A DNA stretch of 64,000 nucleotides, taken from an uncultured Zetaproteobacteria bacterium. GTDB lineage: Bacteria; Pseudomonadota; Zetaproteobacteria; Mariprofundales; Mariprofundaceae. Position numbers and translations under genes: made by a program. The notes under the pieces are model-generated. The model did no database searches, had not been told where the DNA came from, and was given only the letters and a program-made list of their open reading frames with translations. Each line of letters opens with the position of its first letter. The first letter of the stretch is position 1. The stretch spans positions 52,968 to 116,967 of the forward strand of contig CAZYAI010000001.1 of the NCBI GenBank assembly GCA_964645625.1, given 5' to 3'. Shown here in pieces: positions 1,750-43,630 of this stretch.

Positions 1750-1920
1750 GTGTATTTATTGTATTAGGCCGGTATCCTGGCTGGGTCTTCATACTTTGCT
1801 GCGACCTTCCCGTGTTACCAGTGGTCATGATGCAGCATCGTCGGACGTACAGTAGCGGGGGCTGCGCCAGATTGGTGACTGGACTTCCCGTTTAACGCTT
1901 ACTCTTAAGGGGTGTGGCTT
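1750..1920 (-). promoter_or_regulatory. cobalamin (AdoCbl) riboswitch in the cbiA-cobO leader
   Basis: The minus strand reads ...TTAAACGGGAAGTCCAGTCACCAATCTGGCGCAGCCCCCGCTACTGTA...GACCACTGGTAACACGGGAAGGTCGC...GAAGACCCAGCCAGGATACCGGCC. This contains the conserved GGGAAG, GCCACTG-like and B12-box (AGCCAGGATACCGGCC) elements, in the right order and orientation upstream of cbiA. Confidence 0.8.
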
Positions 1921-1998
1921 CATTGTGTGAATCACACCCCTTAGAGCAAAGCGCACCTAATGCCTCGGCACACTAAGAAGCTGGCTTGGAATAGCAAC

Positions 1999-11123: not shown

Positions 11124-11132
11124 GGTGTTTCC

Positions 11133-11996
11133 TTATATTGTCTTCTGTTGACGTAGTGCGCGTACATCAGTAATGCTTAAACCTGTTTTTTGTGCAATCG
11201 TTTGATCATCCAAGATATCAAGGAAGCTTGCGGCAATGCGTTGAGATGCCAACAACTCACCTTCTTTAAGTCCTTCTTCTTTACCTAGGCGTTGTGCCAG
11301 TTGCAATGCACCACGTTGATCTTGAATGAAGATTTCTCGCCGCTCTTGGTCGTCAAGCTCTTCGGGCGTTAACCCTGCCTTGTTGGCAATAACAAATGCA
11401 TGATTGATGGCATCATCATTTGCTAAAACTTTAGGGATGGCACTCAAATCACCTGCGCATTTGAGGAAGTAGAACCATTTATCCAACAGGGTATCCAACT
11501 CATCCTCTGAACGTTTAAATTTGGGCAACTCTGCAAAAATAAGTTCTAAATCATCGTGGTAAACCAGCCCATTTTCTTCGCGTAACTTAAAACTGTTTAC
11601 CACCTCAGACAGCTCGTTGAACATCACAAAATCGGTGATGGTAATGGCAATAACATCGGTTAAATGTTGATAGTGTTCGCCCATAGTCAGCTGCCCTACA
11701 TAGCTTTTACAGGCATTGTATAACACACGTTTTTCAAAGCCTTCGACGTTGAGTACCTGCATTTCGATGATGTAGGATTTACCCTGTTCATCAAGGGCGC
11801 GAACATCCAAGTAGGTATCTTTCATACCCTTGATTTTAGGGGCTAAATAGGGGTCTATGATTTCCACTTCAGCTATGCGGTGTGGTGCTTCTAAACGCAA
11901 AATTGCGTTGAGAAAACTTAATAAAATATCCGTGCTTTCAGTCGAGCCAAAAATGCGTTTGAAAGCAAAATCTGTTTTAGGGTTCAGAAACCGCAT
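11133..11996 (-). CDS. Rpn/YhgA-like recombination-promoting nuclease (PD-(D/E)XK, 'putative transposase' family), copy 1
   Basis: MRFLNPKTDFAFKRIFGS...YLDVRA.DEQGK.YIIEMQV... is about 90% identical to the two copies at 33085 and 34050. The GAGG RBS/ATG at 11996 has the same AACGAGGT leader as the other copies. The listed ORF start at 12029 is an upstream extension. Confidence 0.85.
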   Translation of the reverse strand: MRFLNPKTDFAFKRIFGSTESTDILLSFLNAILRLEAPHRIAEVEIIDPYLAPKIKGMKDTYLDVRALDEQGKSYIIEMQVLNVEGFEKRVLYNACKSYVGQLTMGEHYQHLTDVIAITITDFVMFNELSEVVNSFKLREENGLVYHDDLELIFAELPKFKRSEDELDTLLDKWFYFLKCAGDLSAIPKVLANDDAINHAFVIANKAGLTPEELDDQERREIFIQDQRGALQLAQRLGKEEGLKEGELLASQRIAASFLDILDDQTIAQKTGLSITDVRALRQQKTI

Positions 11997-12040: not shown

Positions 12041-12637
12041 TTTTTTTATACAGTATCGCAATCTAAAAATCCGTCAACTGCACTTGATACAGTATCCAGT
12101 CTTGCGTCCGTTCGCTGGATTGCGGATCAAGTCCGCAATGACGTGGTTTCCCTCGGTCATGCCGCACTCGATGCGGTATTGCGGATCAAGTCCGCAATGA
12201 CGTGGGTTTCCTCGGTCATGCCGCGCTTGATGCTGCATCCAGTCTTGCGTCCGTTCGCTCCGTCATGCCGCACTCGATGCGGTATTGCGGATCAAGTCCG
12301 CAATGACGTGGGTTTCCTCGGTCATGCCGCGCTTGATGCTGCATCCAGTCTTGCGTCCGTTCGCTCCGTCATGCCGCACTCGATGCGGTATTGCGGATCA
12401 AGTCCGCAATGACGTGGGTTTCCTCGGTCATGCCGCGCTTGATGCGGTATCCAGTCTTGCGTCCGTTCGCTGGATTGCGGATCAAGTCCGCAATGACGTG
12501 GTTTCCCTCGGTCATGCCGCACTTGATGCGGTATCCAGTCTTGCGTCTGTTCACTCGATTACGGATCAAGTCCGCAATGACACGTTGCTACCCAAAAAGT
12601 CACGTATATAACCATGCGTGCGTAACATCAGCTACTG
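12041..12637. repeat. tandem array of hairpin-containing units (periods 59/84/106 bp), bracketed by a perfect 17 bp inverted repeat at 12011-12027 and 12621-12637
   Basis: Core GCGGATCAAGTCCGCAATGAC recurs at 12122, 12181, 12287, 12393, 12477 and 12561. Each carries the hairpin ATTGCGGA-TCAAG-TCCGCAAT. Modules of two kinds are interleaved. The flanks TTTTTATACAGTAT... and ...AAAAAGTCACG..CATGCGTGCGT.ACA.CAG are shared with the single-unit copy at 50849-51012. AGCTGATGTTACGCACG at 12011 is the exact reverse complement of 12621-12637. Confidence 0.8.
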
Positions 12638-30263: not shown

Positions 30264-30920
30264 ATGGATAGTTTTTTAGTTAATATCAGCAGTTTCCCAA
30301 CGGCAATCTATACGACTTCTTTAGTCGTTGTGGTCGGTTACTGGTTATTCGCCTTGTTCGGTGCTTTAGATTTCGATGCCTTTGACGCTGATATTGATAT
30401 CGATGTGGACAGTGGCGTGAGTGACTTAAGTGGTGTTGCAGGATTCATGGCAACATTGGGTTTAACGGGTGTTCCGATCACCATTGTAATAAGCCTATTG
30501 TTACTCAATGCGTGGCTGGTTTGTTATTTCCTTGCGCTGTTTACCCCTGCATTGCCGCAGTTCGCTTCATGGATACTGTTCATCGTACACATGGGCGTGG
30601 TCATTGTCAGTTTTCTGGTGTCTATTTTACTTACTGCAATCATGATTAGACCACTACGGGGATTATTCCGCAAAGTGCACCAAGTACCAAAATCAATCTC
30701 TCTTTTAGGGGCAAGCTGTCGTATTCGAAGTAGTCGGGTGGATGGTGAATTTGGTGAGGCTGAGTGTCAAAATGAAGGCGCGAGCTTGATTATTAAGGTG
30801 CGGACAAGTAATGGTGAGGTGTTTGCTACGGGTGATCGGGCGGTAGTGATTGAACATAACCAACAAGATGACTTTTTTTATGTGGTGAGTGAAGAGGCTT
30901 TTCGACAGCGGATGGGTTGA
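30264..30920 (+). CDS. NfeD-like membrane protein (YqiJ-like), partner of the flotillin gene
   Basis: 218 aa. N-terminal TM helices, acidic DFDAFDADIDIDVDSG segment, and a C-terminal OB-fold-like soluble tail. Immediately precedes an SPFH/flotillin gene, as in yqiJ-yqiK. Confidence 0.6.
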   Translation: MDSFLVNISSFPTAIYTTSLVVVVGYWLFALFGALDFDAFDADIDIDVDSGVSDLSGVAGFMATLGLTGVPITIVISLLLLNAWLVCYFLALFTPALPQFASWILFIVHMGVVIVSFLVSILLTAIMIRPLRGLFRKVHQVPKSISLLGASCRIRSSRVDGEFGEAECQNEGASLIIKVRTSNGEVFATGDRAVVIEHNQQDDFFYVVSEEAFRQRMG

Positions 30921-30983
30921 TCCGAACAATAAATGGGCATGGCGTTTTGACGCGTTGTGCGTGTGAATAAGGGAGTATAAATA

Positions 30984-33017
30984 ATGGAATTACTTTTACC
31001 GATATTGGTGTTTGGCGGCGTCGTATTAATCATATTGTTGGGGTTAGCATTTCTATTTAGCACTTTTTATAAAAAAGTACCTCAAGGCTATGCCTTGATT
31101 GTGAATGATATGTCTTCTAAACCCAAGGTGCATTTTACTGGTGGTTTGGTGTTACCGATTATTTATAAAATGGAAGTGATGCAAATTTCACTTATCACGT
31201 TAGAGATAGACCGTCGCGCAAATGATGGTTTGATCTGTCAAGACAACCTTCGGGCGGATATTACGGTTGCATTTTACCTACGGGTGAATGAAACTAGAGA
31301 TGATGTGCTTCGGGTTGCTAAGTCTATTGGTGTTGATCGCGCATCGGACAAAGAGGCAGTTAATGAGCTCTTTGGTGCTAAATTTTCCGAGGCGTTAAAG
31401 ACCGTGGGTAAGAAAATGGCTTTTCTTGACCTGTTTGAAAATAGAATTCAATTCAGGGAAAAAATCATCGAAGTGATTGGCGATGACTTAAATGGTTACG
31501 TGCTAGAAGATGTGGCGATTGATTACCTAGAGCAGACACCGAAGGCTAAACTTGATCCGAATAATATTCTTGATTCTGAGGGTATTAAAAAGATCACCGA
31601 AATTACAGCAGCTCAGAATGTTCAGACCAATCGCCTAGAAAAAGATGAGCAGTTAGCGATTACTAAAAAGAATGTTGAGACTCGTGAAGCGATGCTGGCT
31701 TTAGAGCGGCAACAGGTCGATGCTGAATCCAAACAAAAGCGCGAAATCCAGACTGTACAGGCGCGTGAAGCTGCCGAGACGAAAAAGGTTCAAGAGGAAG
31801 AACGCCTTAAAGCTGAACAAGCGAGGATTGAGACGGATGAGCAATTGGAGATACGTAATCAGGTTAAAATTCGTCAGGTTGAGATAGCAGAGCAAAACCG
31901 AGCACGCGCCATTGCGATTGAAAAAGAGAAGGTGATTCGTGCGCAAGAAATGGAAGAAGTGAATCGCCACCGTGAAGTGGAGTTGGCGGAAATTGATAAA
32001 AACAAGGCGTTGGAAGAAGAGAAGAAGATTATATCACATATTATTAGCGAACGGATTGCGGTGGATAAAAAGGTAACCGAAGAGGAAGAGCGGATTAAAG
32101 AGGTGAAGGAGGTTTCTGAAGCCGATCGCTTAAGGCAGGTTCGAGTGTTAGCGGCTGAAGCTTCAGCCAAAGAGGAATTGGTACATACGGTGATGCGTGC
32201 CGAGGCTGATGAGCAGAAAGCTATCCATAAGGCACGTGAAATTAACGTGATGGCACAAGCAGAGTTGGAAGCTGCATCGAAGAAAGCAGAAGCCGATAAA
32301 AAGTTAGCTGAAGGGGCACAGGCAACCGCTGCTGCCGCTGGGCTTGCTGAAGCTCGGGTGATGGAAGCAAAAGCCGACGCTAAGGAAAAAGAAGGTATCG
32401 TCGAAGCTCACGTGCAGGAAGTTAAGGCTGATGCCAAACAGAAAGAGGGGGTTGCTGAGGCGAATATTCAGCAGGCTAAAGCAATTTCAGCAGAAAAAGA
32501 GGGACTAGCAGAAGCTCGGGTATTGGAAGAAAAGTTGACTGCTGAAGCGCGTGGTCAGGAAGAGCTGGGTAAGGCTCAAGCAGTGACTGAGAAAGAAGTC
32601 GGTATGAGTAAGGCAGAAGTATTGCGAGCAAAAGGTAAAGCTGAAGCTGATGCCTTGATCGAAAAGTTTGCTGCTATGAACAATATGAATAAGGAATCAC
32701 GTGAGTTTGAAGAGTTCCGCTTGAACTTGGAAGCTCATTTGCAAGAAGTGATGGCATCTATTGCTGCGAATAAAGATATTGCAGGGGATCAAGCCAATGT
32801 ACTGGCTGCCGCACTTGAAAAAGCCAATATCGACATTGTTGGTGGTCAGGGCGATTACTTTGATAAACTCGCCAAAGGCATGGGCGCAGGCAATGCAGTG
32901 AATGGTTTCATCGAGAAAAGCCCTATTGTGCAAGCTTTGATGGAAAAACTGCTGGGCGGTGCCAATGCTGTACCTAAGCATGTTCCTGATTCGGGTCACC
33001 ATGACGCAGCGAGTTGA
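30984..33017 (+). CDS. flotillin-like SPFH/Band-7 protein (YqiK/FloT-like) with a long repetitive coiled-coil
   Basis: 677 aa. N-terminal TM, then an SPFH core (...GLICQDNLRADITVAFYLRVNE...). Extended E/A/K-rich heptad region including ~17-aa tandem repeats (AKADAKEKEGIVEAHVQEV / KADAKQKEGVAEANIQQ / AKAISAEKEGLAEARVLEE). Confidence 0.8.
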   Translation: MELLLPILVFGGVVLIILLGLAFLFSTFYKKVPQGYALIVNDMSSKPKVHFTGGLVLPIIYKMEVMQISLITLEIDRRANDGLICQDNLRADITVAFYLRVNETRDDVLRVAKSIGVDRASDKEAVNELFGAKFSEALKTVGKKMAFLDLFENRIQFREKIIEVIGDDLNGYVLEDVAIDYLEQTPKAKLDPNNILDSEGIKKITEITAAQNVQTNRLEKDEQLAITKKNVETREAMLALERQQVDAESKQKREIQTVQAREAAETKKVQEEERLKAEQARIETDEQLEIRNQVKIRQVEIAEQNRARAIAIEKEKVIRAQEMEEVNRHREVELAEIDKNKALEEEKKIISHIISERIAVDKKVTEEEERIKEVKEVSEADRLRQVRVLAAEASAKEELVHTVMRAEADEQKAIHKAREINVMAQAELEAASKKAEADKKLAEGAQATAAAAGLAEARVMEAKADAKEKEGIVEAHVQEVKADAKQKEGVAEANIQQAKAISAEKEGLAEARVLEEKLTAEARGQEELGKAQAVTEKEVGMSKAEVLRAKGKAEADALIEKFAAMNNMNKESREFEEFRLNLEAHLQEVMASIAANKDIAGDQANVLAAALEKANIDIVGGQGDYFDKLAKGMGAGNAVNGFIEKSPIVQALMEKLLGGANAVPKHVPDSGHHDAAS

Positions 33018-33084
33018 TGTGGGTCGCTTTTTGGTCTGTGCGATTGCACCGTTTCGTTTAGACTCCTAAACAACGAGGTCATGT

Positions 33085-34005
33085 ATGCAGTTTTTGAACC
33101 CTAAAACAGATTTTGCTTTTAAACGTATTTTTGGCTCGACGGAAAGTGCGGATATTTTGCTCAGCTTCCTCAATGCTATTTTGGACTTGGAGTCGCCGTA
33201 TCGCATTGCTGATGTGGAGATTATTGATCCTTATTTAGCACCTAAAATCAAGGGTATGAAAGACACCTATTTGGATGTTCGCGCCCGCGATGAACAGGGC
33301 AAGGCGTACATCATCGAAATGCAGGTGCTGAACGTTGAAGGCTTTGAGAAACGTGTATTATACAATGCGTGTAAAAGTTATGCGGGGCAACTTCATCAAG
33401 GCGAACATTATCAACACCTGAGCGATGTGATTGCGATTACCATCACCGATTTTGTGATGTTCCCTGAGCAAAAGAGCATCGTTAATAGCTTTAAATTGCG
33501 TGCCGAAAACGGTTTGGTGTACCACGATGATTTAGAACTGATTTTTGCTGAGTTGCCCAAGTTTAAGCGTTCAGAGGACGAGTTGGAAACGTTGTTAGAT
33601 AAATGGTTTTACTTCCTCAAATGTGCGGGTGATTTGCGCGCTATTCCTAAAGTGTTGGCAGGTGAAGGTGCGATCAATCACGCATTTGTGATTGCCAATA
33701 AAGCAGGCTTAAGTCGTGAGGAGTTGGACGACCAAGAACGGCGAGAGATTTTCATCCAAGATCAACGCGGCGCATTGCAACTGGCAAAAAGAGTAGGCAA
33801 AGAAGAAGGCTTGAAGGAAGGTAAAGAAGAGGGTCTGAAGGAAGGGGTGGAACAGGGAATAGAACAAGGTGAACGCTTAGCCGCCCAACGTATTGCAAGT
33901 AGTTTTCTTGATATACTCGACGACCAAACGATTGCCCAGAAAACAGGGCTAAACCTTGATGATGTACAGGCGTTGCGTCAGCAAAACAACGATCGTGTTC
34001 AATGA
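33085..34005 (+). CDS. Rpn/YhgA-like recombination-promoting nuclease (PD-(D/E)XK 'putative transposase' family), copy 2
   Basis: 306 aa, near-identical to copy 3 and ~90% identical to copy 1. C-terminal region carries 2 KEEGLKEG-type repeats. Confidence 0.85.
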   Translation: MQFLNPKTDFAFKRIFGSTESADILLSFLNAILDLESPYRIADVEIIDPYLAPKIKGMKDTYLDVRARDEQGKAYIIEMQVLNVEGFEKRVLYNACKSYAGQLHQGEHYQHLSDVIAITITDFVMFPEQKSIVNSFKLRAENGLVYHDDLELIFAELPKFKRSEDELETLLDKWFYFLKCAGDLRAIPKVLAGEGAINHAFVIANKAGLSREELDDQERREIFIQDQRGALQLAKRVGKEEGLKEGKEEGLKEGVEQGIEQGERLAAQRIASSFLDILDDQTIAQKTGLNLDDVQALRQQNNDRVQ

Positions 34006-34049
34006 TGATTGTGCCGTTTCGGATAGATTCCTAAACAACGAGGTGATGT

Positions 34050-34985
34050 ATGCAGTTTTTGAACCCTAAAACAGATTTTGCTTTTAAACGTATTTTTGGC
34101 TCGACGGAAAGTGCGGATATTTTGCTCAGCTTCCTCAATGCTATTTTGGACTTGGAGTCGCCGTATCGCATTGCTGATGTGGAGATTATTGATCCTTATT
34201 TAGCACCTAAAATCAAGGGTATGAAAGACACCTATTTGGATGTTCGCGCCCGCGATGAACAGGGCAAGGCGTACATCATCGAAATGCAGGTGCTGAACGT
34301 TGAAGGCTTTGAGAAACGTGTATTATACAATGCGTGTAAAAGTTATGCGGGGCAACTTCATCAAGGCGAACATTATCAACACCTGAGCGATGTGATTGCG
34401 ATTACCATCACCGATTTTGTGATGTTCCCTGAGCAAAAGAGCATCGTTAATAGCTTTAAATTGCGTGCCGAAAACGGTTTGGTGTACCACGATGATTTAG
34501 AACTGATTTTTGCTGAGTTGCCCAAGTTTAAGCGTTCAGAGGACGAGTTGGAAACGTTGTTAGATAAATGGTTTTACTTCCTCAAATGTGCGGGTGATTT
34601 GCGCGCTATTCCTAAAGTGTTGGCAGGTGAAGGTGCGATCAATCACGCATTTGTGATTGCCAATAAAGCAGGCTTAAGTCGTGAGGAGTTGGACGACCAA
34701 GAACGGCGAGAGATTTTCATCCAAGATCAACGCGGCGCATTGCAACTGGCAAAAAGAGTAGGCAAAGAAGAGGGTTTGAAGGAAGGTAAAAAAGAGGGCC
34801 TGAAGGAAGGCAAAGAAGAGGGCCTGAAGGAAGGAGTGGAACAGGGAATAGAACAAGGTGAACGTTTAGCCGCCCAACGTATTGCAAGTAGTTTTCTTGA
34901 TATACTCGATGATCAAACGATTGCCCAGAAAACTGGTCTAAGCCTTGAAGATGTACACATGCTGCGTCAGCAAAACAGCATGTAA
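34050..34985 (+). CDS. Rpn/YhgA-like recombination-promoting nuclease, copy 3 (tandem duplicate of copy 2)
   Basis: 311 aa, identical to copy 2 over the first ~240 aa. 3 KEEGLKEG-type repeats instead of 2. Divergent last ~20 aa. Same 5' leader CCGTTTCG..TAGA.TCCTAAACAACGAGGT.ATGT. Confidence 0.85.
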   Translation: MQFLNPKTDFAFKRIFGSTESADILLSFLNAILDLESPYRIADVEIIDPYLAPKIKGMKDTYLDVRARDEQGKAYIIEMQVLNVEGFEKRVLYNACKSYAGQLHQGEHYQHLSDVIAITITDFVMFPEQKSIVNSFKLRAENGLVYHDDLELIFAELPKFKRSEDELETLLDKWFYFLKCAGDLRAIPKVLAGEGAINHAFVIANKAGLSREELDDQERREIFIQDQRGALQLAKRVGKEEGLKEGKKEGLKEGKEEGLKEGVEQGIEQGERLAAQRIASSFLDILDDQTIAQKTGLSLEDVHMLRQQNSM

Positions 34986-35049
34986 TGTACATTCCTTTAC
35001 CTCATCGGATGCTACGTTTAAAAGCTAACTTCATGGCAGGGGCTTACAC

Positions 35050-38000
35050 GTGACTGATCAAACTGAACATACAACGATATCTGAACAGGCCGTTGCAGAA
35101 GGCGGCGCGTATGAGGTGATACGTCAGCGTTTAAATACACAGCAGCAATCACTTGAAACGTTCATTAACGAGCTTAACCACAAGCGACAGCAGGAATTTG
35201 GAAGCACCGAAATGAAGGTGCTCGGACGCATGCGGTTGAGAACAGAGAACAACTGTCAGGCGCAAGATTTGGTGTTGGTTGGTGAATACGTCCTGTTTGC
35301 TTATAATGTTCATATCGGCTTGAGGAAGGAAACGCGCATCGAAGATGTGCTTGCTCTTTACACTTTGGTAGAGCAAAACGGTGAATACGATTTGCGCTCG
35401 GTTGCTATCAAAGATTCTTTTCTGGCGGATCACCGTTTTCAAAGCGATTTTCAAGAACTGTATGCTTATTACAAAGATACTTCGCTGTCCCAATTGGTGT
35501 TTAAACACAATAAGCTTATTGCATCGTTTCAGATTGGTGAAAAATTATCAGACGTGCGCGTTTTCCGCTGGGAAGTATCCGATGATGGTCAGCGCGTTGA
35601 TTATATCGATAATCGTGGTGAGCGTGATCTTCGCCTACCAGCCAGCCATGATTTTGAATGGGTGCAGTGTCATCGTGACGATGTGGTCGATGGGCGAAAT
35701 CCGCATATTAACATACTCGATACCTTGTTTGTGGATGCCTCACGTGGCGATATTACGATTAAGGTGGAAGATAACACCAATGTCGGTCTTGGTATTTATT
35801 CCGAACCCGTACAAGAAAAGAATCAGGCTTTGGATGATGCCGAGTTTTATTACGCCGACCTGCAACAACTCATCCTGTTAAAAATCAAGCCTTACCGTGA
35901 AGAGCATTATCGTTATTTGATATATAATCGTAACAATCAGCAAGTGCAACGCATGGATGCTATTGGCGATGCCTGTGTTCAATTACCTGAGGATCACGGT
36001 ATTATTTTCCCTGGTGGTTATTACTTAACCACGGGCGAAATGAAAACCTTTGAAGGTAATCTTGAGCATCTGGTCTATAAACGTGCCATGCGTTCCCCCA
36101 ATGGTGAAGATGTGCTTTATATCTTTTACCAGCCTGAATCCAATGTGATTGTCATGTATGGTTACAATCTGATCGAAAAGTCCTTGCAAAACCCTTTGAT
36201 TGGTCACGGTTATGGCTTTTATGATGATGGTCGGATGATTATTTTTTATGCCGATGATGAGCCTAAACGGGTACACCCTTTGCAAATTTGGCAAACCCCT
36301 TATTGCAGCGAAGTGCATGCCAGCAGGCAAACTGTGGCGCATAGTTTTTATGGTAACATTGGCAATGCTGAACTGGTACGCGGTATTTCTGAGTTGTACA
36401 GCATCAGCAGGAGCATGCGTTCAACCGATGTTTCTTCTGAACACTACCATCGCCTCAGTCAGGCCTGTAGTAAGATTTTTGATAGTTATTATTGGTTAGA
36501 TTCCCCCGAGTTGAAGGGCATCGCCACATTGCTGCGGGAAGTTGCCAGTACTGCTGAGCTGGTGCTTGATGAGTATGAAAAGGTCGAAAGCATTCGTGCC
36601 CAGTCGCGCAAAGCATTGCAGGAGGCTGAAGCGAAGCAACGTGAAATGATTCGTCAAATTACTCCTGATAGCTGGCATGCGCCACAGGCGTTTGTCGATG
36701 GCTTGTTTAGCATACGGCAGCATCGTGGGCATTTGATGACGATCAAATCCTATCGTTATATGGATGTCGCGAAAATCAACCAGCTGGATGCCGATATTGC
36801 AGCGGTAGAGCTTGATTTAAATCAAAAAACCGTAGCTTTCTTGGCTTCTGAAGGCGCGCTTTCCAGCTATGATAAGGTGTTGGATCGCGTTGCGAGCGAA
36901 CGCCTTACCTGCAAAACCCATGCCGAACTTAAACCGCATGTTGAAGCACTTCAGCAATTGGCAGCAGCACTGGATTTGATTGCCGAAATGATGGCATCGC
37001 TCAAGGTGGATGATGCAACGGTGCAAACGCGCATTGTCGATGCGATTTCTGAACTGTATAGCCGCTTGAATCAACAAAAGGCAGAGCTGGAACATCAACG
37101 TAAAAGCGTTGGCAGTGCTGAGGCTGCGGCGCAATTTTCGGCACGGCTTAAGTTACTGAATCAAAGTATGAATAACGCGCTTGGTATGGCAAAGACGCCA
37201 GCGAGCAGTGACGAGCAGTTTTCTCGGCTGCTGGTGCAGTTAGAAGAGCTTGAAGCGGAATTTAGTGACTACGATGATTTTATCGCCGACGTTATTAAAA
37301 AACGTGAAACGATATTCGATGCCTTTGAGGCTCATAAACAGCGGTTGATTGATGCGCAGCAACGTAAGGCACAATCCCTCGCCGATGCTGGCACACGCAT
37401 CTTGCAGAGCGTGCAACGGCGCGTTAAACGCTTCACCACCCAAGAAGAATTAAACACCTTTTTCAGTGGCGATAGTCTGATCAGGAAGGTCAGCGACACC
37501 ATTGAAACATTAAGATCCTTGGATGATAGCGTCAAAGCCGAAGACCTTGATGCGCAATTCAAAGCAATCAGGGAGCAATCCATCCGTTCCCTGCGTGATA
37601 AAAGTGATCTTTATGAATCGGGTGGTCAGCTGATTAAACTTGGCCCACGTCATAAGTTTTCGGTCAACACGCAGGATCTGGATCTCACCATTTTACCCAA
37701 GGGCGATGCCTTATTTATCCGCCTAACAGGTACCGATTATTGTGAGGTACTGGATGATGATGCGCTGAATGCTAAGCGTGCGTATTGGTCGATGGAGCTT
37801 CCTTCTGAAAGTGCGCAGCTTTGTCGTGCTGAATACTTGGCTTATAGCATCTTGCAGGCGGCCAAAAGGCAACAACAGGGTCTTGATTGGCAAGGTTTGG
37901 CGCAAGCTGCCACAGATGCAAAAAGCATGCTGGCGTTGGTCGCAGCATTTGCCGCACCTCGTTATAAAGAGGGGTATGAAAAAGGTATTCACGATCATGA

Positions 38001-40317
38001 TGCCAGCCTGATGTTGCAAAAAATCGTACCTGTTTATGAAACAGCAGGAAGCTTTAAATACGCGCCTGCTGCGCGTGGGCTGGCGGCAATCTATTGGGCG
38101 AATAAATATAATGGGGCGCAGCAACAGCGATGGCCGCAACGGGCTAGGAATGCAGCGCAGATGATGCAGGTTTTTGCTGATTCTAAGGCGCAAACTATCC
38201 TGAGCCTAGAGATTGCGGATGATTTGAGGGCTTTTGTCGCTGAGCATCAATTACCCGCAGATGAACGCGTGTTGACTCGTGCCAGTGAATACTTGAGCGA
38301 TGAATTGGCACAAGAACGGGTGGCTTTTGCGACCACCAAATATGCGCGCTACCTCTGCGATGCTTTTGTCACCCACTTAAAAACGCACAATATCTGGCGC
38401 GATTATGAAACAGCATTGGATGCTATGAAGGGGCAGGTCGGTAAACGTTGGGCGTTGGCAGAAAGTTGGTTGACTGCCTTTGTGCAGTCACAGCATAAGC
38501 CGCAATACAGCAGTTTTATCGCCGAAGCGATTGGCATACTGAACGCAGAACAACGTATTGATCGTGTTGATCGTGAATGTGATGTGCAGCTCACCATCGA
38601 AGGTTTGTTGGCAAGGCATCATAAGATCGAAAATCGCCAACTGACCATTCAACTGGATCAGTTTTTGGATGATAATCGTCATCATATCGAACAGGTGATA
38701 CCTGCCTACGAAGATTATTTGCAAGCGCGCCAGCGCATGATGATTGAAAGGCGTGAAGCTTTGGGGCTGGAGTCATTCAAGGCTAAACCCTTGGCATCGT
38801 TTGTCCGCAATCGGCTCATCAATGAGGTTTATTTGCCTTTGATTGGCGATAATCTGGCCAAACAGATTGGCACAGTAGGCGATAAAAAACGTTCGGACTT
38901 GATGGGTTTATTGCTTATGATCTCGCCGCCAGGTTATGGTAAAACAACGTTGATGGAATACGTGGCTGATCGCTTGGGGCTTATTTTTATGAAGATTAAC
39001 TGCCCTGTGATTGGTCACACCATCACCGCTGTGGATCCACAACAGGCGGATAATAGTGCTGCCCGCCAAGAGCTAGAGAAATTGAACCTAGCATTGGAAA
39101 TGGGCAATAATGTGATGTTGTACCTCGATGATATTCAACATACCAACAGCGAGTTTTTGCAAAAGTTTATTTCGTTATCCGATGGTACGCGCCGCATCGA
39201 AGGGGTGTGGAAAAAACGACCTAAAACGTATGATATGCGCGGCAAGAAGTTCTGCGTGGTGATGGCAGGTAATCCTTACACCGAATCAGGCGAAGCCTTC
39301 CAGATCCCTGACATGCTTGCCAACCGTGCTGATATTTACAATTTGGGTGACGTATTGAGTGGCAAAGAGGCGGTGTTTGAACTCAGTTATATCGAAAATG
39401 CTTTGACCTCCAATCCTGTGTTGGCGCCGCTGGCGACGCGAGACATGGCGGATGTTTACAGATTCCTTGAGATGGTCGATGGCGCAAACATAGCCAGCAC
39501 GGATTTATCTCACCCTTACAGCAGTGCCGAGATCAAAGAAATTGTTGATGTGTTACGCAAAATGAAAGTCATTCAAGGCATTGTATGGAAGGTCAACCAA
39601 GCTTACATCGCCGCCAGTGCGCAGGATGATAAGTACCGCACCGAACCAACATTTAAGTTGCAAGGTTCGTACCGAAACATGAATAAAATGGCAGAAAAAA
39701 TATCGGCAATTATGAGCGATGATGAACTGATGCACCTCGTGGACGATCACTACCAAGGTGAGGCGCAATTGTTGACCACAGGCACGGAAGCCAACCTACT
39801 CAAGCTGGCGGAGATTCGCGCTCGCATGAATGCGCAACAGCAGCAACGTTGGACGCAAATCAAAGCTGATTTTATGCGCAATAAAGCGATGGGCGGTGAT
39901 GATGCCGATGTAGGCAGTAAAATTGTGGTGCAGCTCAATGACTTGGTGGCAGGCATCCATGCTTGGCGAGAAAGCCTTGAACAATCGCATGCCGCAGCAC
40001 ATGAGTCGCAAAATCGCGAACTGCTGGTGAGTAGAGAACAAAATAGTAAAGCGTTGAACAATATCGCCAGGGCTATTGCTCGTGTGGCAGCGCATATAAA
40101 AGCAGAAACGCAGGGCGAAGCGGCTACATCCGCCGATCATATACCATTGGAAAGCCTTACGCATCTACTGGAACATACCTTACACCCGTTGATCAAAATC
40201 ATGTATGGCAAACTTGATTTGGATTTAGGAACGCACAAGAACATGGCGGATATTAACCGAAAATTGGCAGTTATTGATTCATTGGTCAGAAACAAGAAGC
40301 CAAGAACAAAGTCTTGA
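35050..40317 (+). CDS. giant (1755 aa) protein with a single MoxR/AAA_5-type AAA+ ATPase module at ~aa 1290-1480 and ~1250 aa of unassigned N-terminal sequence, including a long coiled-coil
   Basis: Walker A LLMISPPGYGKTTLM (nt ~38925). Walker B VMLYLDDIQH. Sensor region FCVVMAGNPYTESGEAFQIPDMLANRADIY, the same ..NP..(G)...P pattern as CbbQ (VISYNPGYQ) and MoxR (ATQNP). Residues ~560-900 are heptad-rich. One uninterrupted ORF with coding composition throughout. Confidence 0.7.
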   Translation: MTDQTEHTTISEQAVAEGGAYEVIRQRLNTQQQSLETFINELNHKRQQEFGSTEMKVLGRMRLRTENNCQAQDLVLVGEYVLFAYNVHIGLRKETRIEDVLALYTLVEQNGEYDLRSVAIKDSFLADHRFQSDFQELYAYYKDTSLSQLVFKHNKLIASFQIGEKLSDVRVFRWEVSDDGQRVDYIDNRGERDLRLPASHDFEWVQCHRDDVVDGRNPHINILDTLFVDASRGDITIKVEDNTNVGLGIYSEPVQEKNQALDDAEFYYADLQQLILLKIKPYREEHYRYLIYNRNNQQVQRMDAIGDACVQLPEDHGIIFPGGYYLTTGEMKTFEGNLEHLVYKRAMRSPNGEDVLYIFYQPESNVIVMYGYNLIEKSLQNPLIGHGYGFYDDGRMIIFYADDEPKRVHPLQIWQTPYCSEVHASRQTVAHSFYGNIGNAELVRGISELYSISRSMRSTDVSSEHYHRLSQACSKIFDSYYWLDSPELKGIATLLREVASTAELVLDEYEKVESIRAQSRKALQEAEAKQREMIRQITPDSWHAPQAFVDGLFSIRQHRGHLMTIKSYRYMDVAKINQLDADIAAVELDLNQKTVAFLASEGALSSYDKVLDRVASERLTCKTHAELKPHVEALQQLAAALDLIAEMMASLKVDDATVQTRIVDAISELYSRLNQQKAELEHQRKSVGSAEAAAQFSARLKLLNQSMNNALGMAKTPASSDEQFSRLLVQLEELEAEFSDYDDFIADVIKKRETIFDAFEAHKQRLIDAQQRKAQSLADAGTRILQSVQRRVKRFTTQEELNTFFSGDSLIRKVSDTIETLRSLDDSVKAEDLDAQFKAIREQSIRSLRDKSDLYESGGQLIKLGPRHKFSVNTQDLDLTILPKGDALFIRLTGTDYCEVLDDDALNAKRAYWSMELPSESAQLCRAEYLAYSILQAAKRQQQGLDWQGLAQAATDAKSMLALVAAFAAPRYKEGYEKGIHDHDASLMLQKIVPVYETAGSFKYAPAARGLAAIYWANKYNGAQQQRWPQRARNAAQMMQVFADSKAQTILSLEIADDLRAFVAEHQLPADERVLTRASEYLSDELAQERVAFATTKYARYLCDAFVTHLKTHNIWRDYETALDAMKGQVGKRWALAESWLTAFVQSQHKPQYSSFIAEAIGILNAEQRIDRVDRECDVQLTIEGLLARHHKIENRQLTIQLDQFLDDNRHHIEQVIPAYEDYLQARQRMMIERREALGLESFKAKPLASFVRNRLINEVYLPLIGDNLAKQIGTVGDKKRSDLMGLLLMISPPGYGKTTLMEYVADRLGLIFMKINCPVIGHTITAVDPQQADNSAARQELEKLNLALEMGNNVMLYLDDIQHTNSEFLQKFISLSDGTRRIEGVWKKRPKTYDMRGKKFCVVMAGNPYTESGEAFQIPDMLANRADIYNLGDVLSGKEAVFELSYIENALTSNPVLAPLATRDMADVYRFLEMVDGANIASTDLSHPYSSAEIKEIVDVLRKMKVIQGIVWKVNQAYIAASAQDDKYRTEPTFKLQGSYRNMNKMAEKISAIMSDDELMHLVDDHYQGEAQLLTTGTEANLLKLAEIRARMNAQQQQRWTQIKADFMRNKAMGGDDADVGSKIVVQLNDLVAGIHAWRESLEQSHAAAHESQNRELLVSREQNSKALNNIARAIARVAAHIKAETQGEAATSADHIPLESLTHLLEHTLHPLIKIMYGKLDLDLGTHKNMADINRKLAVIDSLVRNKKPRTKS

Positions 40318-40389: not shown

Positions 40390-42654
40390 CTACTTGGTGA
40401 GTGAGATAAACAACTCAGGCAGTTTTTGTGGCAACTTATCTACATGGTCAATGACGGCATAGCGTTTGTCGAAAATATCCGTGACATATTCATCTGCTTT
40501 GGGATCAAGTGAGATGCAGTAGGTGAAAATACCATCGCGATCCAGCTCATTCACGGCTTGTTTACTGTCTTCGATCAACATGCGTTCATCATCAACATCA
40601 ATGTCGGATGGTTGCCCATCTGTGAGTACCAATAACAGCTTTTTGTCCGCACGCTGGTTCTTTAAGTAATGTCCTGCATGGCGAACAGCAGCACCCATGC
40701 GCGTGGAGTAGCCTGCTTGCATGGCCGCTAGTCGGGCTTTTACTGTGTCTCCCCATGGTTCACTGAAACCTTTGATATGGTAATAACGCACATCGTGGCG
40801 GGTGTTGGAATGGAAACCACCGATGGAGAAGGGGTCGCCCAATTGTCCAATAGACCAACCTAATAGGGATACAGCTTCTTGCGAGAGTTGCAAAATGGTT
40901 TGCTCTGTTCCAGCAGCCTTATCATCAAGTGATTGAGATAGATCCAACAATAGCGATACAGCGATATTTCTACCATCCGTCTTGTGTGACATATTCACAC
41001 GAGGGTCAGGGGTAGAGCCGCTTTTGAGGTCAATCAAAGAGCGAAGCGCAACATCTAAATCTAATTCGCTGCCCTCTTCTTGAAAGCGTATGCGCGTTTT
41101 ATCTTGTGGCTTCAAACTGTCGAGTACTCGCTTTAGGCGTTTTGCCAAAGCACTGTGTTTGTCCAAAAGCGAGTCAATGTATGAGGCTGAACCTTGGCTG
41201 TGTAGGGATTCGTATACACTGACCCAATCAGGGCGATAATGTTGTGAGGCATAATCCCATTCATGGTAATGGCGTGGCGGTAGTGCATGAATCTCTTCAC
41301 TGTCTTCTTTTTGCTGGTTGAGGTGATCAAACTCCTCTTCTTCATCTCCTGCTTCGATATAAATCCATAAATGTCGGTTATCGTCTCGGTAGCTGACCTC
41401 GGTGTTGCGGAAGTAAATATGCGGCAACAAGTCATTTTGTGTACGTGTTTTGGCGATGAATAATAGTGCCAGCTCCGCCATTTTTGGACTACTGGATTCA
41501 TTGTCTTTTAAGGCGTGGACAATGCGTTCCGCAAAATCTCGAATGATTGGGTGTTTTACCTCAAAATTGGGGTCAAGCACCTTACGAGATAATAAAGCTA
41601 GGCGAAGGCGTATGGTTGACCATGAGTCAAGGTTTAGGTCATCTTCATTAGGGATGGGATGCAGGCGCAAGTAAGTGTCATACAGCCCTGGGTATTGACG
41701 TAGGGTGAGTAGATCAATGCGGCAATCTTCAAAGGTTTCTACAGCAATCCGCTGAAACGGACTCCAGTTATCCACCACCATACGCTCACTCCAGCGACGG
41801 TGTGCACACATGTGTGCTAACACTGCGCGGTAACGGTCAATACCTTTAATGCCATTGAGGTCATCAAAAACATCGGGAATGCGTATGCCAAGCTCATCAA
41901 AGTAAGGCATGGGTTTACGTAGTTCATCAAACGCGAGAGAGTAGGGAACTAAATAATCATGTTCACCCCATAAGGCGCGTAGATATAGATCCAGCTTGCG
42001 TTCATTCTCCATAAACAGTGTGCCATGACGTTCACGTTGTAACATGGCACGCGAGTCGGCCGACTGCAGGGAGAAAAAGTCCTTTTGTCGACCAGGGTGA
42101 CTGATGTAGTAAGTAACGCCGTAATTGATCCAGTTGCGCAAGCCTTGCAATGTTACCAAAGAGAGTAGGTGTGGTGCTTGCTTGAGTAGTTCAGGCATGC
42201 CTGGGCTAGGGAATGTTGTGTGGTGACCATGCACAGAGCCAGTGGTGCGCTCAGCAAACTCTTTAAGCAAATCAATATATGATTCCATTAAGGCTTGTGT
42301 TTTTAAATATCGACTGACTTCTGCAAGCGTTTGTAAAAATGGAACGATAGACGGTGCATTGGTATTTCGTGCCAAGTGCCAGACAAAGTCCTTAACGATG
42401 GAGAGCATTGCTTCCCCCGTGTTGGAAACAACAGTAGGCATTTCTTCAAGGTAAATGAGAATAGGATCAGCACCGCGTCCCATTTTGCCTAAAAAAGAGG
42501 CATTGTCGATGTAGTCATCTAAGCCACTGGGTGACAATACGAGTTTCGCTTCTGTGAGGCACTCAGAAAACACACTCTTCACCTGTGGGAAGTTTGAGTT
42601 TAAACGTTCCCAATAGGCTAAATCATGCTCGGGTATTTGTACTGTATCAGCCAT
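40390..42654 (-). CDS. cbbO: RuBisCO activase subunit CbbO (C-terminal von Willebrand A domain)
   Basis: 754 aa. C-terminal VWA with MIDAS (LLLDLSQSLDDK ... VLTDGQPSDIDVDD). Immediately downstream of cbbQ. Confidence 0.85.
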   Translation of the reverse strand: MADTVQIPEHDLAYWERLNSNFPQVKSVFSECLTEAKLVLSPSGLDDYIDNASFLGKMGRGADPILIYLEEMPTVVSNTGEAMLSIVKDFVWHLARNTNAPSIVPFLQTLAEVSRYLKTQALMESYIDLLKEFAERTTGSVHGHHTTFPSPGMPELLKQAPHLLSLVTLQGLRNWINYGVTYYISHPGRQKDFFSLQSADSRAMLQRERHGTLFMENERKLDLYLRALWGEHDYLVPYSLAFDELRKPMPYFDELGIRIPDVFDDLNGIKGIDRYRAVLAHMCAHRRWSERMVVDNWSPFQRIAVETFEDCRIDLLTLRQYPGLYDTYLRLHPIPNEDDLNLDSWSTIRLRLALLSRKVLDPNFEVKHPIIRDFAERIVHALKDNESSSPKMAELALLFIAKTRTQNDLLPHIYFRNTEVSYRDDNRHLWIYIEAGDEEEEFDHLNQQKEDSEEIHALPPRHYHEWDYASQHYRPDWVSVYESLHSQGSASYIDSLLDKHSALAKRLKRVLDSLKPQDKTRIRFQEEGSELDLDVALRSLIDLKSGSTPDPRVNMSHKTDGRNIAVSLLLDLSQSLDDKAAGTEQTILQLSQEAVSLLGWSIGQLGDPFSIGGFHSNTRHDVRYYHIKGFSEPWGDTVKARLAAMQAGYSTRMGAAVRHAGHYLKNQRADKKLLLVLTDGQPSDIDVDDERMLIEDSKQAVNELDRDGIFTYCISLDPKADEYVTDIFDKRYAVIDHVDKLPQKLPELFISLTK

Positions 42655-42667
42655 AGTAGATGACTCC

Positions 42668-43471
42668 TTAGCCGAAGGTTACAGTAATAGTATTATCCAA
42701 GGTTTCACGAATGTCGGCATCATCAGTGATCGGACGAACCATAGCCATACGACATGCAGCTTTGGCTTCGACCCCTTGATTAATCAACGTTGCAGCATAA
42801 ACCAATAGGCGAGTGGAGATACCTTCATCCAGACCGTGACCTTTCAAGTTCCTTGCTGCTGTACCAATGCTTACCAATTTCTCTGCTATATCTGCTGCTA
42901 AGCCTGTTTCGTTGCAGATAATTTCTTGTTCGACGGCTGCCGATGCATAGTCAAAGTCAAAGCCAGTAAATCGTTGTTTGGTGGATTGCTTCAGGTCTTT
43001 CATCAAGCTTTGATAGCCAGGGTTGTAGGAGATGACTAACTGGAAGTCTGGGTGGGCTTCGACCAATTCACCTTTTTTGTCCAGTGGTAGGGTGCGACGG
43101 TGATCGGTTAATGGGTGAATAATCACAGTGGTATCTTGTCTGGCTTCTACGACCTCATCCAAGTAGCAAATGGCACCAATACGTGCTGCTGTAGTCAGCG
43201 GACCATCGAGCCAACGTGTGCCGTTGCTATCAAGCAGGTAACGACCAACCAAGTCTGAGGCTGTCATATCTTCATTGCAAGCAACGGTAATCAGCGGTTT
43301 GCCGAGTTTCCAAGCCATGTATTCAACAAAACGAGATTTGCCGCATCCTGTTGGTCCCTTAACCATCACAGGCAAGCGCGCTGCGTAAGCCGCCGAATAC
43401 AACTCAATTTCATCAGCCTGTGCTTGATAAAAAGGTTCCTTTTGGATTTCATATTGTTTTTTATCGTTCAT
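42668..43471 (-). CDS. cbbQ: RuBisCO activase ATPase CbbQ (MoxR-class AAA+)
   Basis: Walker A VKGPTGCGKSRFVEYMA. Walker B ICYLDEV. Sensor LVISYNPGYQS. ATG at 43471 has an AGGAG RBS. The listed ORF start at 43510 is an upstream extension. Confidence 0.9.
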   Translation of the reverse strand: MNDKKQYEIQKEPFYQAQADEIELYSAAYAARLPVMVKGPTGCGKSRFVEYMAWKLGKPLITVACNEDMTASDLVGRYLLDSNGTRWLDGPLTTAARIGAICYLDEVVEARQDTTVIIHPLTDHRRTLPLDKKGELVEAHPDFQLVISYNPGYQSLMKDLKQSTKQRFTGFDFDYASAAVEQEIICNETGLAADIAEKLVSIGTAARNLKGHGLDEGISTRLLVYAATLINQGVEAKAACRMAMVRPITDDADIRETLDNTITVTFG

Positions 43472-43630
43472 TTTCAATACTCCTAGATGATTGCTTGAAG
43501 GGGCGAGCACTCAGCCCGTATGATTCTTCCATCGTTGTTGTGTGGCACTGTGTTGTTGCTGATATAAAAAAAGGGGCCTCACATAGGAGACCCCTTTATT
43601 ATGTGAAGAGCCTAAGCCCTACAGAGGGTT

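What the first reader, a model, noticed from the sequence alone, without database searches (positions are those of the whole stretch)
33018..34990. Recent tandem duplication of an Rpn nuclease gene, with copy-number variation of a 24-nt KEEGLKEG repeat in the C-terminal (RpnS-equivalent) region
Two ~965 bp units, each carrying a conserved leader (CCGTTTCG..TAGA.TCCTAAACAACGAGGT.ATGT) and an ORF, are nearly identical over the first ~720 nt of the ORF. They differ in the number of GAAGAAGG(C/T)(T/C)TGAAGGAAGG(T/C)AAA units (2 vs 3) and in the last ~20 codons. In E. coli Rpn proteins, the C-terminal segment is separately translated as a small RpnS antitoxin that restrains the toxic nuclease, and Rpn proteins can limit phage (published work on the rpn genes). 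Variation concentrated exactly in that segment suggests ongoing diversification of a toxin/antitoxin-like specificity region. A third, more diverged copy (11133-11996) has only one repeat.
Basis: partly seen in the sequence, partly recalled or inferred. Interest (0 to 1): 0.6.

Follow-up and report, generated by a model that had tools for sequence, protein, structure and literature searches.

The report
Tandem Rpn-family nuclease gene pair
Two side-by-side copies of a known nuclease gene family (Rpn), differing by one 8-amino-acid unit in a repeat-bearing helix, are an ordinary example of a published pattern, and the duplication is old: the perfect identity seen here is secondary.

Summary
The sequence observation is correct. 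Two tandem ORFs (33085-34005 and 34050-34985) carry 2 and 3 copies of a 24-nt KEEGLKEG unit, and a third paralog (11133-11996, minus strand) carries one.

- **Family.** They match PF12784/TIGR01784 ("Rpn family"). Their C-terminal ~45 residues are homologous to E. coli RpnA-S (PDB 7TH0, E=5e-6).
- **Already published.** Tandem rpn arrays and variable four-residue repeats in the RpnS helix were described by Zhong et al. 2023.
- **"Recent duplication" is refuted.** Four independent assemblies of essentially the same strain (2 differences in about 20 kb of flank) have the same pair. There the copies differ at 25 sites across the 5' 726 nt (dS 0.15).
- **Cause of the identity.** In this window both copies carry one identical mosaic of copy-1-type and copy-2-type alleles. 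This is either assembly collapse or very recent gene conversion.
- **"Variation concentrated in the C-terminus"** is therefore largely an artefact. Both gene parts are under purifying selection (dN/dS 0.07-0.13).
- **Repeat number** is invariant (2 and 3) in all five assemblies.
- **Internal start.** No convincing site exists: there is no ATG, and the TTG/GTG candidates are weak.
- **Origin.** The pair is a lineage-specific insertion between a flotillin-like gene and a DUF3686 ATPase gene.

Verdict: a new member of a known kind, of low to moderate interest.

The parts
33042..33084 (+). Leader of copy 1, containing the Shine-Dalgarno sequence ACGAGGT 6 nt before the ATG. This is where the duplicated unit begins.
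   Evidence: Alignment of the two units; SD duplex energy -6.6 kcal/mol.
33085..34005 (+). rpn-family copy 1 (306 aa): PD-(D/E)XK nuclease domain, repeat-bearing helix and an RpnS-like C-terminal domain.
   Evidence: PF12784 E=3.5e-50 and TIGR01784 E=5.4e-49. Identical to protein P0123 of an NCBI assembly.
33799..33846 (+). Two 24-nt units encoding KEEGLKEG in copy 1, followed by a related VEQGIEQG unit at 33847-33870. Glycine recurs every fourth residue.
   Evidence: TRF period 24, 2.1 copies; codon listing.
33847..34002 (+). C-terminal RpnA-S-homologous segment of copy 1 (residues 255-306).
   Evidence: Profile A2 against PDB 7TH0, E=5.1e-6; hhalign probability 94.8%.
34007..34049 (+). Leader of copy 2. 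It has 6 differences from leader 1 and starts one nucleotide after the stop codon of copy 1.
34050..34985 (+). rpn-family copy 2 (311 aa).
   Evidence: PF12784 E=3.7e-50 and TIGR01784 E=8.9e-51. Identical to P0125. AlphaFold2 model with alignment: pLDDT 82.5.
34764..34835 (+). Three 24-nt units in copy 2. The unit 34788-34811 is the extra one, and it differs at 2 of 24 positions from the unit that follows it.
   Evidence: TRF 3.1 copies; indel position; codon listing.
34836..34982 (+). C-terminal RpnA-S-homologous segment of copy 2 (residues 263-311). GTG263 is one weak candidate for an internal start.
33081..33806 (+). Homogenised tract in copy 1. It carries copy-1-type alleles at 33168-33444 and copy-2-type alleles at 33504-33709.
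   Evidence: Variable-site table against L005, L006, L007 and L010; mismatch positions.
34046..34771 (+). Homogenised tract in copy 2, with the same mosaic: copy-1-type alleles at 34133-34409 and copy-2-type alleles at 34469-34674.
11133..11996 (-). Third, diverged paralog (287 aa, identical to P0004) with one KEEGLKEG unit, lying 9 nt upstream of the ferrochelatase gene.

Best explanation
This is a pair of tandemly duplicated genes of the PF12784/TIGR01784 branch of the Rpn nuclease family.

**Origin.** One gene was inserted into the intergenic region of a conserved cluster (218-aa protein, flotillin-like protein, DUF3686 ATPase). It was then duplicated as a unit of about 965 bp, with the right breakpoint lying a few codons before the stop. 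The duplication is old relative to the sampled strains, with dS of 0.15-0.28 between the copies.

**Architecture.** Each protein has an N-terminal PD-(D/E)XK nuclease domain. A long helix follows, carrying a run of four-residue repeats with glycine at every fourth position. The protein ends in a small helical domain homologous to E. coli RpnA-S. The copies differ by one 8-residue unit (two tetrads) in that helix.

**The perfect identity.** The 726-nt identity of the 5' parts in this window is secondary. Most likely the two paralogs collapsed into a single consensus during assembly. Less likely, there was very recent gene conversion in both directions.

**Mechanism (inferred by analogy to E. 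coli Rpn, not shown here).** The nuclease is a toxic or defensive effector. Its C-terminal helix mediates dimerisation and inhibition. Helix length sets partner specificity, so the two paralogs would not cross-pair.
For: - **Family and domains.** Shown. The BLASTP alignment with RpnA lines up the conserved D64/E78/Q80 with D63/E82/Q84, and these positions are invariant in the 93-sequence family alignment.
- **C-terminal homology to RpnA-S.** HMM E=5.1e-6 to 7TH0 and hhalign probability 94.8%.
- **Helix.** The AlphaFold2 model predicts helices 211-253 and 256-282 spanning the repeats.
- **Repeat variation across the family.** Homologs carry from 0 to more than 12 tetrads. Closely related orthologs P0003 (291 aa) and P0129 (299 aa) differ by exactly one 8-aa unit.
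- **Old duplication.** There are 25 fixed paralog differences in four other assemblies, with dS 0.149 and 0.28.
- **Secondary homogenisation.** 25 of the 27 differences from L006 are paralog swaps, while the flanks show 2 differences in about 20 kb.
- **Insertion.** Relatives L099-L105 have the flotillin-like and DUF3686 genes directly adjacent, with no rpn gene between them.
- **Published model.** Zhong et al. 2023 (PMC10400941) and Koonin's commentary (PMC10400984).
Against: - No internal ATG exists. No conserved start codon with a Shine-Dalgarno sequence lies upstream of the repeats, either in the three paralogs or in 74 homologs.
- The N-terminal domain does not hit PF04754, the family of the E. 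coli Rpn proteins. The pairwise E-value is 0.054.
- There is no defence-island context and no meaningful PADLOC hit.
- Paralogs sit in operon-like positions next to housekeeping genes.
- The tools used here cannot separate assembly collapse from real gene conversion.
- Repeat number did not vary among the five assemblies of this locus.
Confidence: 0.6

Rival explanations
1. One reading: a very recent tandem duplication, followed by diversification focused on the C-terminal toxin/antitoxin specificity segment.
For: In the window the first 726 nt are identical, and all differences lie in the leader and the last ~180 nt. The tails and the repeat number differ.
Against: - Four other assemblies that are about 99.99% identical in the flanks show 25 differences spread over the same 726 nt.
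- dS is 0.149 in the 5' part and 0.28 in the 3' part, with dN/dS 0.07 and 0.13.
- About two thirds of the 3' differences are synonymous (about 9 of 14).
- The different tail of copy 1 is a product of the duplication junction.
- Repeat numbers are fixed at 2 and 3 in all five assemblies.
Confidence: 0.07
2. The perfect identity is real. In this strain two abutting gene-conversion tracts homogenised the nuclease-coding parts (copy 1 to copy 2 over about 34046-34468, and copy 2 to copy 1 over about 33445-33806), stopping at the diverged leader and at the repeat indel. This would be concerted evolution of the toxin domain while the two specificity helices stay distinct.
For: The mosaic forms two clean blocks, 14 copy-1-type sites followed by 11 copy-2-type sites, rather than a site-by-site mixture. 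The tract ends coincide with the natural limits of homology. The published paper speculates that Rpn proteins promote recombination at their own loci.
Against: It needs two separate events within a divergence time that left only 2 substitutions in about 20 kb of flank. The source is a draft assembly (a 182-kb contig). Several short-read assemblies break exactly at this repeat (L008, L009, L011-L013), which shows that the locus is hard to assemble. Bubble-collapsing assemblers produce the same block pattern.
Confidence: 0.3
3. No separate small protein is made. The C-terminal helical domain acts only within the full-length protein as a dimerisation or DNA-binding module. Repeat length changes by replication slippage are tolerated, nearly neutral variation, and the paralogs are not a toxin-antitoxin or defence system.
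For: - There is no internal ATG, and no conserved start with a Shine-Dalgarno sequence upstream of the repeats.
- No sigma-70-like internal promoter was found.
- Synonymous differences between copy 1 and copy 3 occur freely in the ~54 nt upstream of the repeats, so there is no sign of an embedded signal.
- The genomic context is housekeeping and there is no PADLOC hit.
Against: - The domain is homologous to RpnA-S.
- Expression of an RpnS was also demonstrated for a Clostridioides difficile rpn gene (PMC10400941).
- TTG231 is kept in all three window paralogs, and its product would start 8 residues before the repeats, within the published 8-20 residue range.
- Non-canonical initiation cannot be excluded from sequence.
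Confidence: 0.35

Closest known systems
E. coli RpnA-E / RpnL-RpnS gene-within-gene toxin-antitoxin systems (Zhong et al. 2023, PNAS; PDB 7TH0 for RpnA-S)
   Same: - PD-(D/E)XK nuclease with the D...E-x-Q motif aligned.
- C-terminal small helical domain homologous to RpnA-S.
- Variable four-residue repeats in the long helix.
- Tandem arrays generated by direct duplication rather than transposition.
- No terminal inverted repeats.
   Different: - The N-terminal domain matches PF12784, not PF04754.
- The unit that varies here is 24 nt (two tetrads) rather than 12 nt.
- The repeats lie before the 'GE..A..IA' motif, whereas in RpnA insertions occur at H261.
- There is no internal ATG and no evident ribosome-binding site for a small protein.
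- The genomic context is not a defence island.
PF12784 (PDDEXK_2) / TIGR01784 'Rpn family recombination-promoting nuclease/putative transposase', COG5464
   Same: Full-length matches well above the curated cut-offs. There are 5,811 homologs at E<=1e-20 with the same architecture and the same variable glycine-tetrad array.
   Different: Nothing essential: this is a typical member. The only local peculiarity is the insertion between the flotillin-like and DUF3686 genes.
FliH / Yae1 GxxxG glycine-repeat helices
   Same: Glycine at every fourth residue in a long helix. Weak hits to Yae1_N (27.3 bits against a cut-off of 27.5) and to FliH models (37 bits against cut-offs of 180-293).
   Different: All hits fall below the curated thresholds and cover only the repeat. 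They reflect repeat composition, not homology of the protein.

Membership tests
PF12784 PDDEXK_2 / TIGR01784 Rpn-family | Full-length match to the family profile above the curated cut-off | tested here: met
   PF12784: 171 bits against a cut-off of 27.4. TIGR01784: 167-173 bits against a cut-off of 52.1, for both copies.
PF12784 PDDEXK_2 / TIGR01784 Rpn-family | Conserved PD-(D/E)XK-type acidic residues (D64, E78, Q80) | tested here: met
   These positions are invariant columns in the 93-sequence alignment A1 and are present in all three window copies.
E. coli-type Rpn (YhgA-like, PF04754) | N-terminal domain matches the Transposase_31 profile | tested here: not met
   RpnA hits PF04754 at E=1.6e-91. 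The window protein gives no PF04754 hit even at E<=10. Pairwise BLASTP E=0.054, and hhalign of A1 against RpnA recovers only the C-terminal segment.
RpnL/RpnS gene-within-gene toxin-antitoxin | C-terminal domain homologous to RpnS | tested here: met
   Profile A2 against 7TH0_A: E=5.1e-6, covering 38 of 49 residues. hhalign E=5.2e-8, probability 94.8%.
RpnL/RpnS gene-within-gene toxin-antitoxin | Four-residue repeats of variable number in the first helix of the C-terminal module | tested here: met
   The three window paralogs carry 2, 6 and 8 tetrads. P0003 and P0129 differ by one 8-aa unit. The variation is family-wide. The region is predicted to be helical.
RpnL/RpnS gene-within-gene toxin-antitoxin | Internal translation start (with a ribosome-binding site) producing a separate small protein that includes the repeats | tested here: inconclusive
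   No ATG after codon 125 until the last eight codons of copy 2. TTG231 has no Shine-Dalgarno sequence (-1.7 kcal/mol). GTG255/263 has an SD-like AAGGAAGG 2-4 nt upstream but lies after the variable units and is absent from copy 3. No conserved start column was found in 74 homologs. No sigma-70-like internal promoter was found.
RpnL/RpnS gene-within-gene toxin-antitoxin | Toxicity or nuclease activity of the long form, and its inhibition by the cognate short form | not testable with these tools
   Requires expression and biochemical assays.
RpnL/RpnS gene-within-gene toxin-antitoxin | Association with defence islands or phage protection | tested here: not met
   The neighbours are mutS, glnD, the flotillin-like gene, the DUF3686 ATPase gene, and VWA and MoxR-like genes. 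PADLOC gave no significant hit. Other paralogs sit next to hemH and between the Hsp33 and globin genes. Phage protection itself cannot be tested here.

The most novel reading that the evidence does not exclude
The 726-nt identity is real. In this strain the nuclease-coding parts of the two paralogs were homogenised by reciprocal gene conversion within a very short time, while the leader, the repeat helices (6 against 8 tetrads) and the RpnS-like domains stayed distinct. That would be a natural pair of Rpn systems with identical toxin domains, differing essentially only in helix length and 4 C-terminal residues. It would directly show concerted evolution of the effector alongside insulated specificity modules, possibly promoted by the recombination activity of Rpn itself.
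Probability: 0.25. Interest if true: 0.45.

Novelty: new member of a known kind. Interest (0 to 1): 0.25.

Why it matters
The main value is as a correction. The apparent signal "identical genes except in the specificity region" does not come from diversifying selection. It comes from homogenisation, probably in the assembler, of two paralogs that differ throughout in every other assembly of the same organism. Scans of single assemblies for "recent duplications with localised divergence" will repeatedly pick up this artefact.

On the biology, the locus extends the published Rpn pattern (tandem arrays, tetrad-repeat helices, an RpnS-like domain) to a Zetaproteobacteria-related lineage and to the PF12784 branch of the family. 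In that branch no canonical internal start is visible. Whether the gene-within-gene antitoxin is really universal in the family could be tested on such members.

Tried and rejected
- **Exact look-ups.** Searches for the two window proteins with the look-up of encoding contigs found nothing. They were later found as P0123 and P0125 through the cluster listing.
- **Single-sequence AlphaFold2.** It gave an unusable model (pLDDT 46). The run was repeated with a 93-sequence alignment (pLDDT 82.5).
- **Foldseek against the PDB with the full-length model.** It gave only non-significant PD-(D/E)XK-like hits (EcoT38I, EndoMS, XisH; E>=0.02) and did not recover RpnA-S. The sequence profile of the tail did recover it.
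- **phmmer of the full protein against PDB sequences.** Nothing relevant.
- **FliH and Yae1_N hits.** Rejected as driven by the repeat composition and below the cut-offs.
- **PADLOC.** Only a marginal 'putative invertase' hit (E=0.0016) on the repeat/HTH segment.
- **Promoter and terminator scan.** No sigma-70-like promoter and no + strand terminator in 32800-35200.
- **Exact-pattern scan of metagenome contigs.** A 27-mer next to the repeats, used to look for repeat-number variants, found nothing because that collection lacks these samples.
- **Flotillin-like and DUF3686 genes next to rpn homologs.** None was found in the 80 genome loci.
- **Conserved internal start codon.** A column-by-column search in 74 homologs was negative.
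Full report
**1. What is in the sequence**

Two ORFs lie head to tail on the + strand: 33085-34005 (306 aa) and 34050-34985 (311 aa). Each follows a short leader with an ACGAGGT Shine-Dalgarno sequence.

A local nucleotide alignment pairs 33042-33988 with 34007-34977. It shows 6 differences in the 39-nt leader, none at all from 33081 to 33806 (726 nt), and then 15 substitutions and one 24-nt indel.

Tandem Repeats Finder reports a 24-nt period, with 2.1 copies in copy 1 and 3.1 in copy 2. The extra unit is 34788-34811.

A third paralog at 11133-11996 (minus strand; 80% aa identity) has one unit.

One refinement is needed. Homology between the units stops at 33988/34977. The last five codons of copy 1 (..DRVQ*) run into the duplication junction and are not a diverged version of the tail of copy 2.

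**2. What the genes are**

Both proteins match PF12784 (PDDEXK_2; 171 bits against a cut-off of 27.4). They also match NCBIfam TIGR01784, [quoted passage not shown] (167-173 bits against a cut-off of 52.1).

They do not match PF04754, the family of the E. coli RpnA-E proteins, even at E<=10. Pairwise BLASTP with RpnA gives only E=0.054. That alignment does place D64/E78/Q80 opposite RpnA D63/E82/Q84. These residues are invariant in a 93-sequence family alignment. That D63/E82/Q84 are the catalytic residues of RpnA is my own recollection of Kingston et al. 2017; I did not check it here.

The C-terminal part gives a clear result. A profile of 34 family tails hits the solved structure of RpnA-S (PDB 7TH0) at E=5.1e-6 over 38 of its 49 residues. 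hhalign gives 94.8% probability.

An AlphaFold2 model built with the alignment (pLDDT 82.5) predicts helices 211-253 and 256-282 spanning the repeats, followed by two short helices.

The KEEGLKEG unit is two tetrads with glycine at every fourth residue. This explains the sub-threshold Yae1_N and FliH hits.

**3. The duplication is not recent**

An exact look-up of the neighbouring flotillin-like protein retrieved independent assemblies of essentially the same organism. L006, L007 and L010 carry the whole pair, and L005 carries the copy 1-copy 2 junction.

In all four, copy 1 and copy 2 differ at 25 sites spread over the 726 nt that are identical in the window. Six of these are non-synonymous: E36K, D43E, H104N, H110Y, R162C and V189A.

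Nei-Gojobori estimates for L006 are as follows:

| Gene part | dS | dN | dN/dS |
|---|---|---|---|
| 5' 723 nt | 0.149 | 0.011 | 0.07 |
| 3' part | 0.28 | 0.037 | 0.13 |

The copies are old paralogs under purifying selection throughout. The 3' part is about twice as diverged, but about two thirds of that divergence is synonymous (about 9 of 14 differences). The repeat numbers (2 and 3) are the same in all five assemblies.

**4. Why the window shows perfect identity**

In the window both copies carry one and the same mosaic. Copy-1-type alleles occupy the first 14 sites (33168-33444 and 34133-34409). Copy-2-type alleles occupy the next 11 sites (33504-33709 and 34469-34674).

The window differs from L006 and L007 at 27 of 22,034 nt. 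Of these, 25 are the paralog swaps and only 2 lie outside the pair. L010 and L005 show no differences outside the pair at all.

There are two possible explanations:
- **Assembly collapse.** The assembler or polisher collapsed the two 3.4%-diverged paralogs into one consensus and used it twice.
- **Gene conversion.** Two abutting conversion tracts arose very recently in this strain.

I favour assembly collapse, at roughly two to one, for three reasons. The source is a draft assembly (a 182-kb contig). Five short-read assemblies break exactly at this repeat. The flanks show almost no divergence time.

The tools available here cannot settle the question. Either way, the pattern "variation concentrated exactly in the C-terminal segment" is not evidence of diversifying selection.

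**5. Is a separate small protein likely?**

Zhong et al. 2023 (PMC10400941) showed internal starts for the five E. coli rpn genes and for one C. difficile gene. In those cases the repeats begin 8-20 residues after the initiating Met.

Here there is no ATG between codon 125 and the last eight codons of copy 2. The candidates are:
- **TTG231.** It is conserved as TTG in all three window paralogs, and its product would begin 8 residues before the repeats. However, it has no Shine-Dalgarno sequence (-1.7 to -2.8 kcal/mol), and TTG is the commonest Leu codon in the gene (16 of 35 Leu codons).
- **GTG255 (copy 1) / GTG263 (copy 2).** It lies just after the variable units, with an SD-like AAGGAAGG only 2-4 nt upstream. 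The product would be 49-52 aa, the size of RpnA-S. It would not contain the variable units, and the codon is absent from copy 3 and from the paralogs P0002 and P0005.

Across 74 homologs, no alignment column upstream of the repeats holds a conserved start codon with a Shine-Dalgarno sequence. No sigma-70-like promoter was found. Synonymous differences between copy 1 and copy 3 are frequent in the ~54 nt before the repeats.

Sequence alone therefore gives no support for an RpnS here, but it cannot exclude non-canonical initiation.

**6. Family-wide and genomic context**

The protein search found 5,811 homologs at E<=1e-20. Their tails show arrays of 0 to more than 12 tetrads, often in 8-residue super-units such as KVLGIEEG. 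The arrays are followed either by the RpnS-like tail or by a DUF4351-type tail.

Repeat number does change between close relatives elsewhere in this clade:
- P0003 (291 aa) and P0129 (299 aa) differ by one KEKGLKEG unit and the last three residues.
- The orthologs P0002, P0126 and P0128 carry 7, 7 and 4 tetrads.

The organism has at least four paralogs. The fourth (P0005) lies between the Hsp33 and globin genes.

The nearest named relatives are Mariprofundaceae/Zetaproteobacteria MAGs at 70-77% identity. The species itself is not in the representative genome set.

In relatives whose flotillin-like protein is about 77-85% identical (L099-L103, L105), the 218-aa, flotillin-like and DUF3686 ATPase genes are directly adjacent. 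The intergenic regions are about 90-490 nt and contain no rpn gene. The rpn pair is therefore a lineage-specific insertion into that intergenic region, followed by duplication.

There is no defence-island context and no meaningful PADLOC hit.

**7. Comparison with what is known, and verdict**

Everything that makes the locus look interesting is already described for the Rpn family (PMC10400941; commentary PMC10400984):
- tandem arrays made by direct duplication;
- hypervariable tetrad repeats in the long helix shared by the long and short forms;
- repeat number setting the specificity of the long-short interaction;
- the idea that paralogs with different repeat numbers are insulated from each other.

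This locus is a new member from the PF12784 branch. It has three small differences: a 24-nt rather than a 12-nt unit, no canonical internal start, and a housekeeping context.

The most likely mechanism is, by analogy, a PD-(D/E)XK nuclease whose C-terminal helix and domain mediate dimerisation and inhibition, with length-coded specificity. The domain architecture and homology are shown here. The activity, the small protein and any defence role are inferred.

Interest is low to moderate. The main result is that the "recent duplication with localised diversification" reading does not hold.

Noticed in passing
window 1750-1956 (-): Cobalamin riboswitch (RF00174; 79 bits against a gathering score of 31.5; E=8e-18). 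It was the only Rfam hit in the window.
   Followed up: no
window 12119-12582: Array of a palindromic REP/MITE-like element (core ATTGCGGATCAAGTCCGCAATGACG, 6 copies). It is organised in 59-, 84- and 106-nt periods, and the 106-nt period is 98% identical between copies. It lies between the third rpn paralog and an RlmL-like gene. Alignments to L001-L003 show indels here, so copy number varies between strains.
   Followed up: partly
window 30264-40317 (+), with 40390-43510 (-): A conserved cluster of unknown function: a 218-aa protein, a 677-aa flotillin-like coiled-coil protein with no Pfam hit, and a 1755-aa protein with DUF3686, DUF7902 and AAA domains. VWA (754 aa) and MoxR/CbbQ-like genes lie next to it on the other strand. 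The three-gene core is syntenic in relatives down to about 77% flotillin-protein identity, and the flotillin-like-DUF3686 pair down to 43%. There is only a marginal LmuB-like PADLOC hit (E=2.7e-4).
   Followed up: partly
window 10095-11996 (-); L095/L096 8001-9811: rpn paralogs sit in operon-like positions directly upstream of housekeeping genes. Copy 3 ends 9 nt before the ferrochelatase start. The stop of paralog P0005 abuts or overlaps the start of a globin-domain gene. This is unusual for a presumed defence or toxin gene.
   Followed up: no
L008, L009, L011, L012, L013 (contig ends at about window 33110-33423): Five independent short-read assemblies end within or just before copy 1. This shows that the tandem pair routinely breaks or confuses assemblers.
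   Followed up: yes
L005 1402-1404 (equivalent to window 34809-34811): One metagenome variant (P0001) has a Gly-to-Asp change in a repeat glycine of copy 2 (KEGKEEG to KEDKEEG). It is the only polymorphism seen inside the repeat array among the five assemblies.
   Followed up: no
window 55353-55409: Short tandem repeat with nested periods of 6, 12 and 24 nt (TAATCG / CAACCG-like units; 2.4 copies of the 24-mer). Its coding context was not examined.
   Followed up: no
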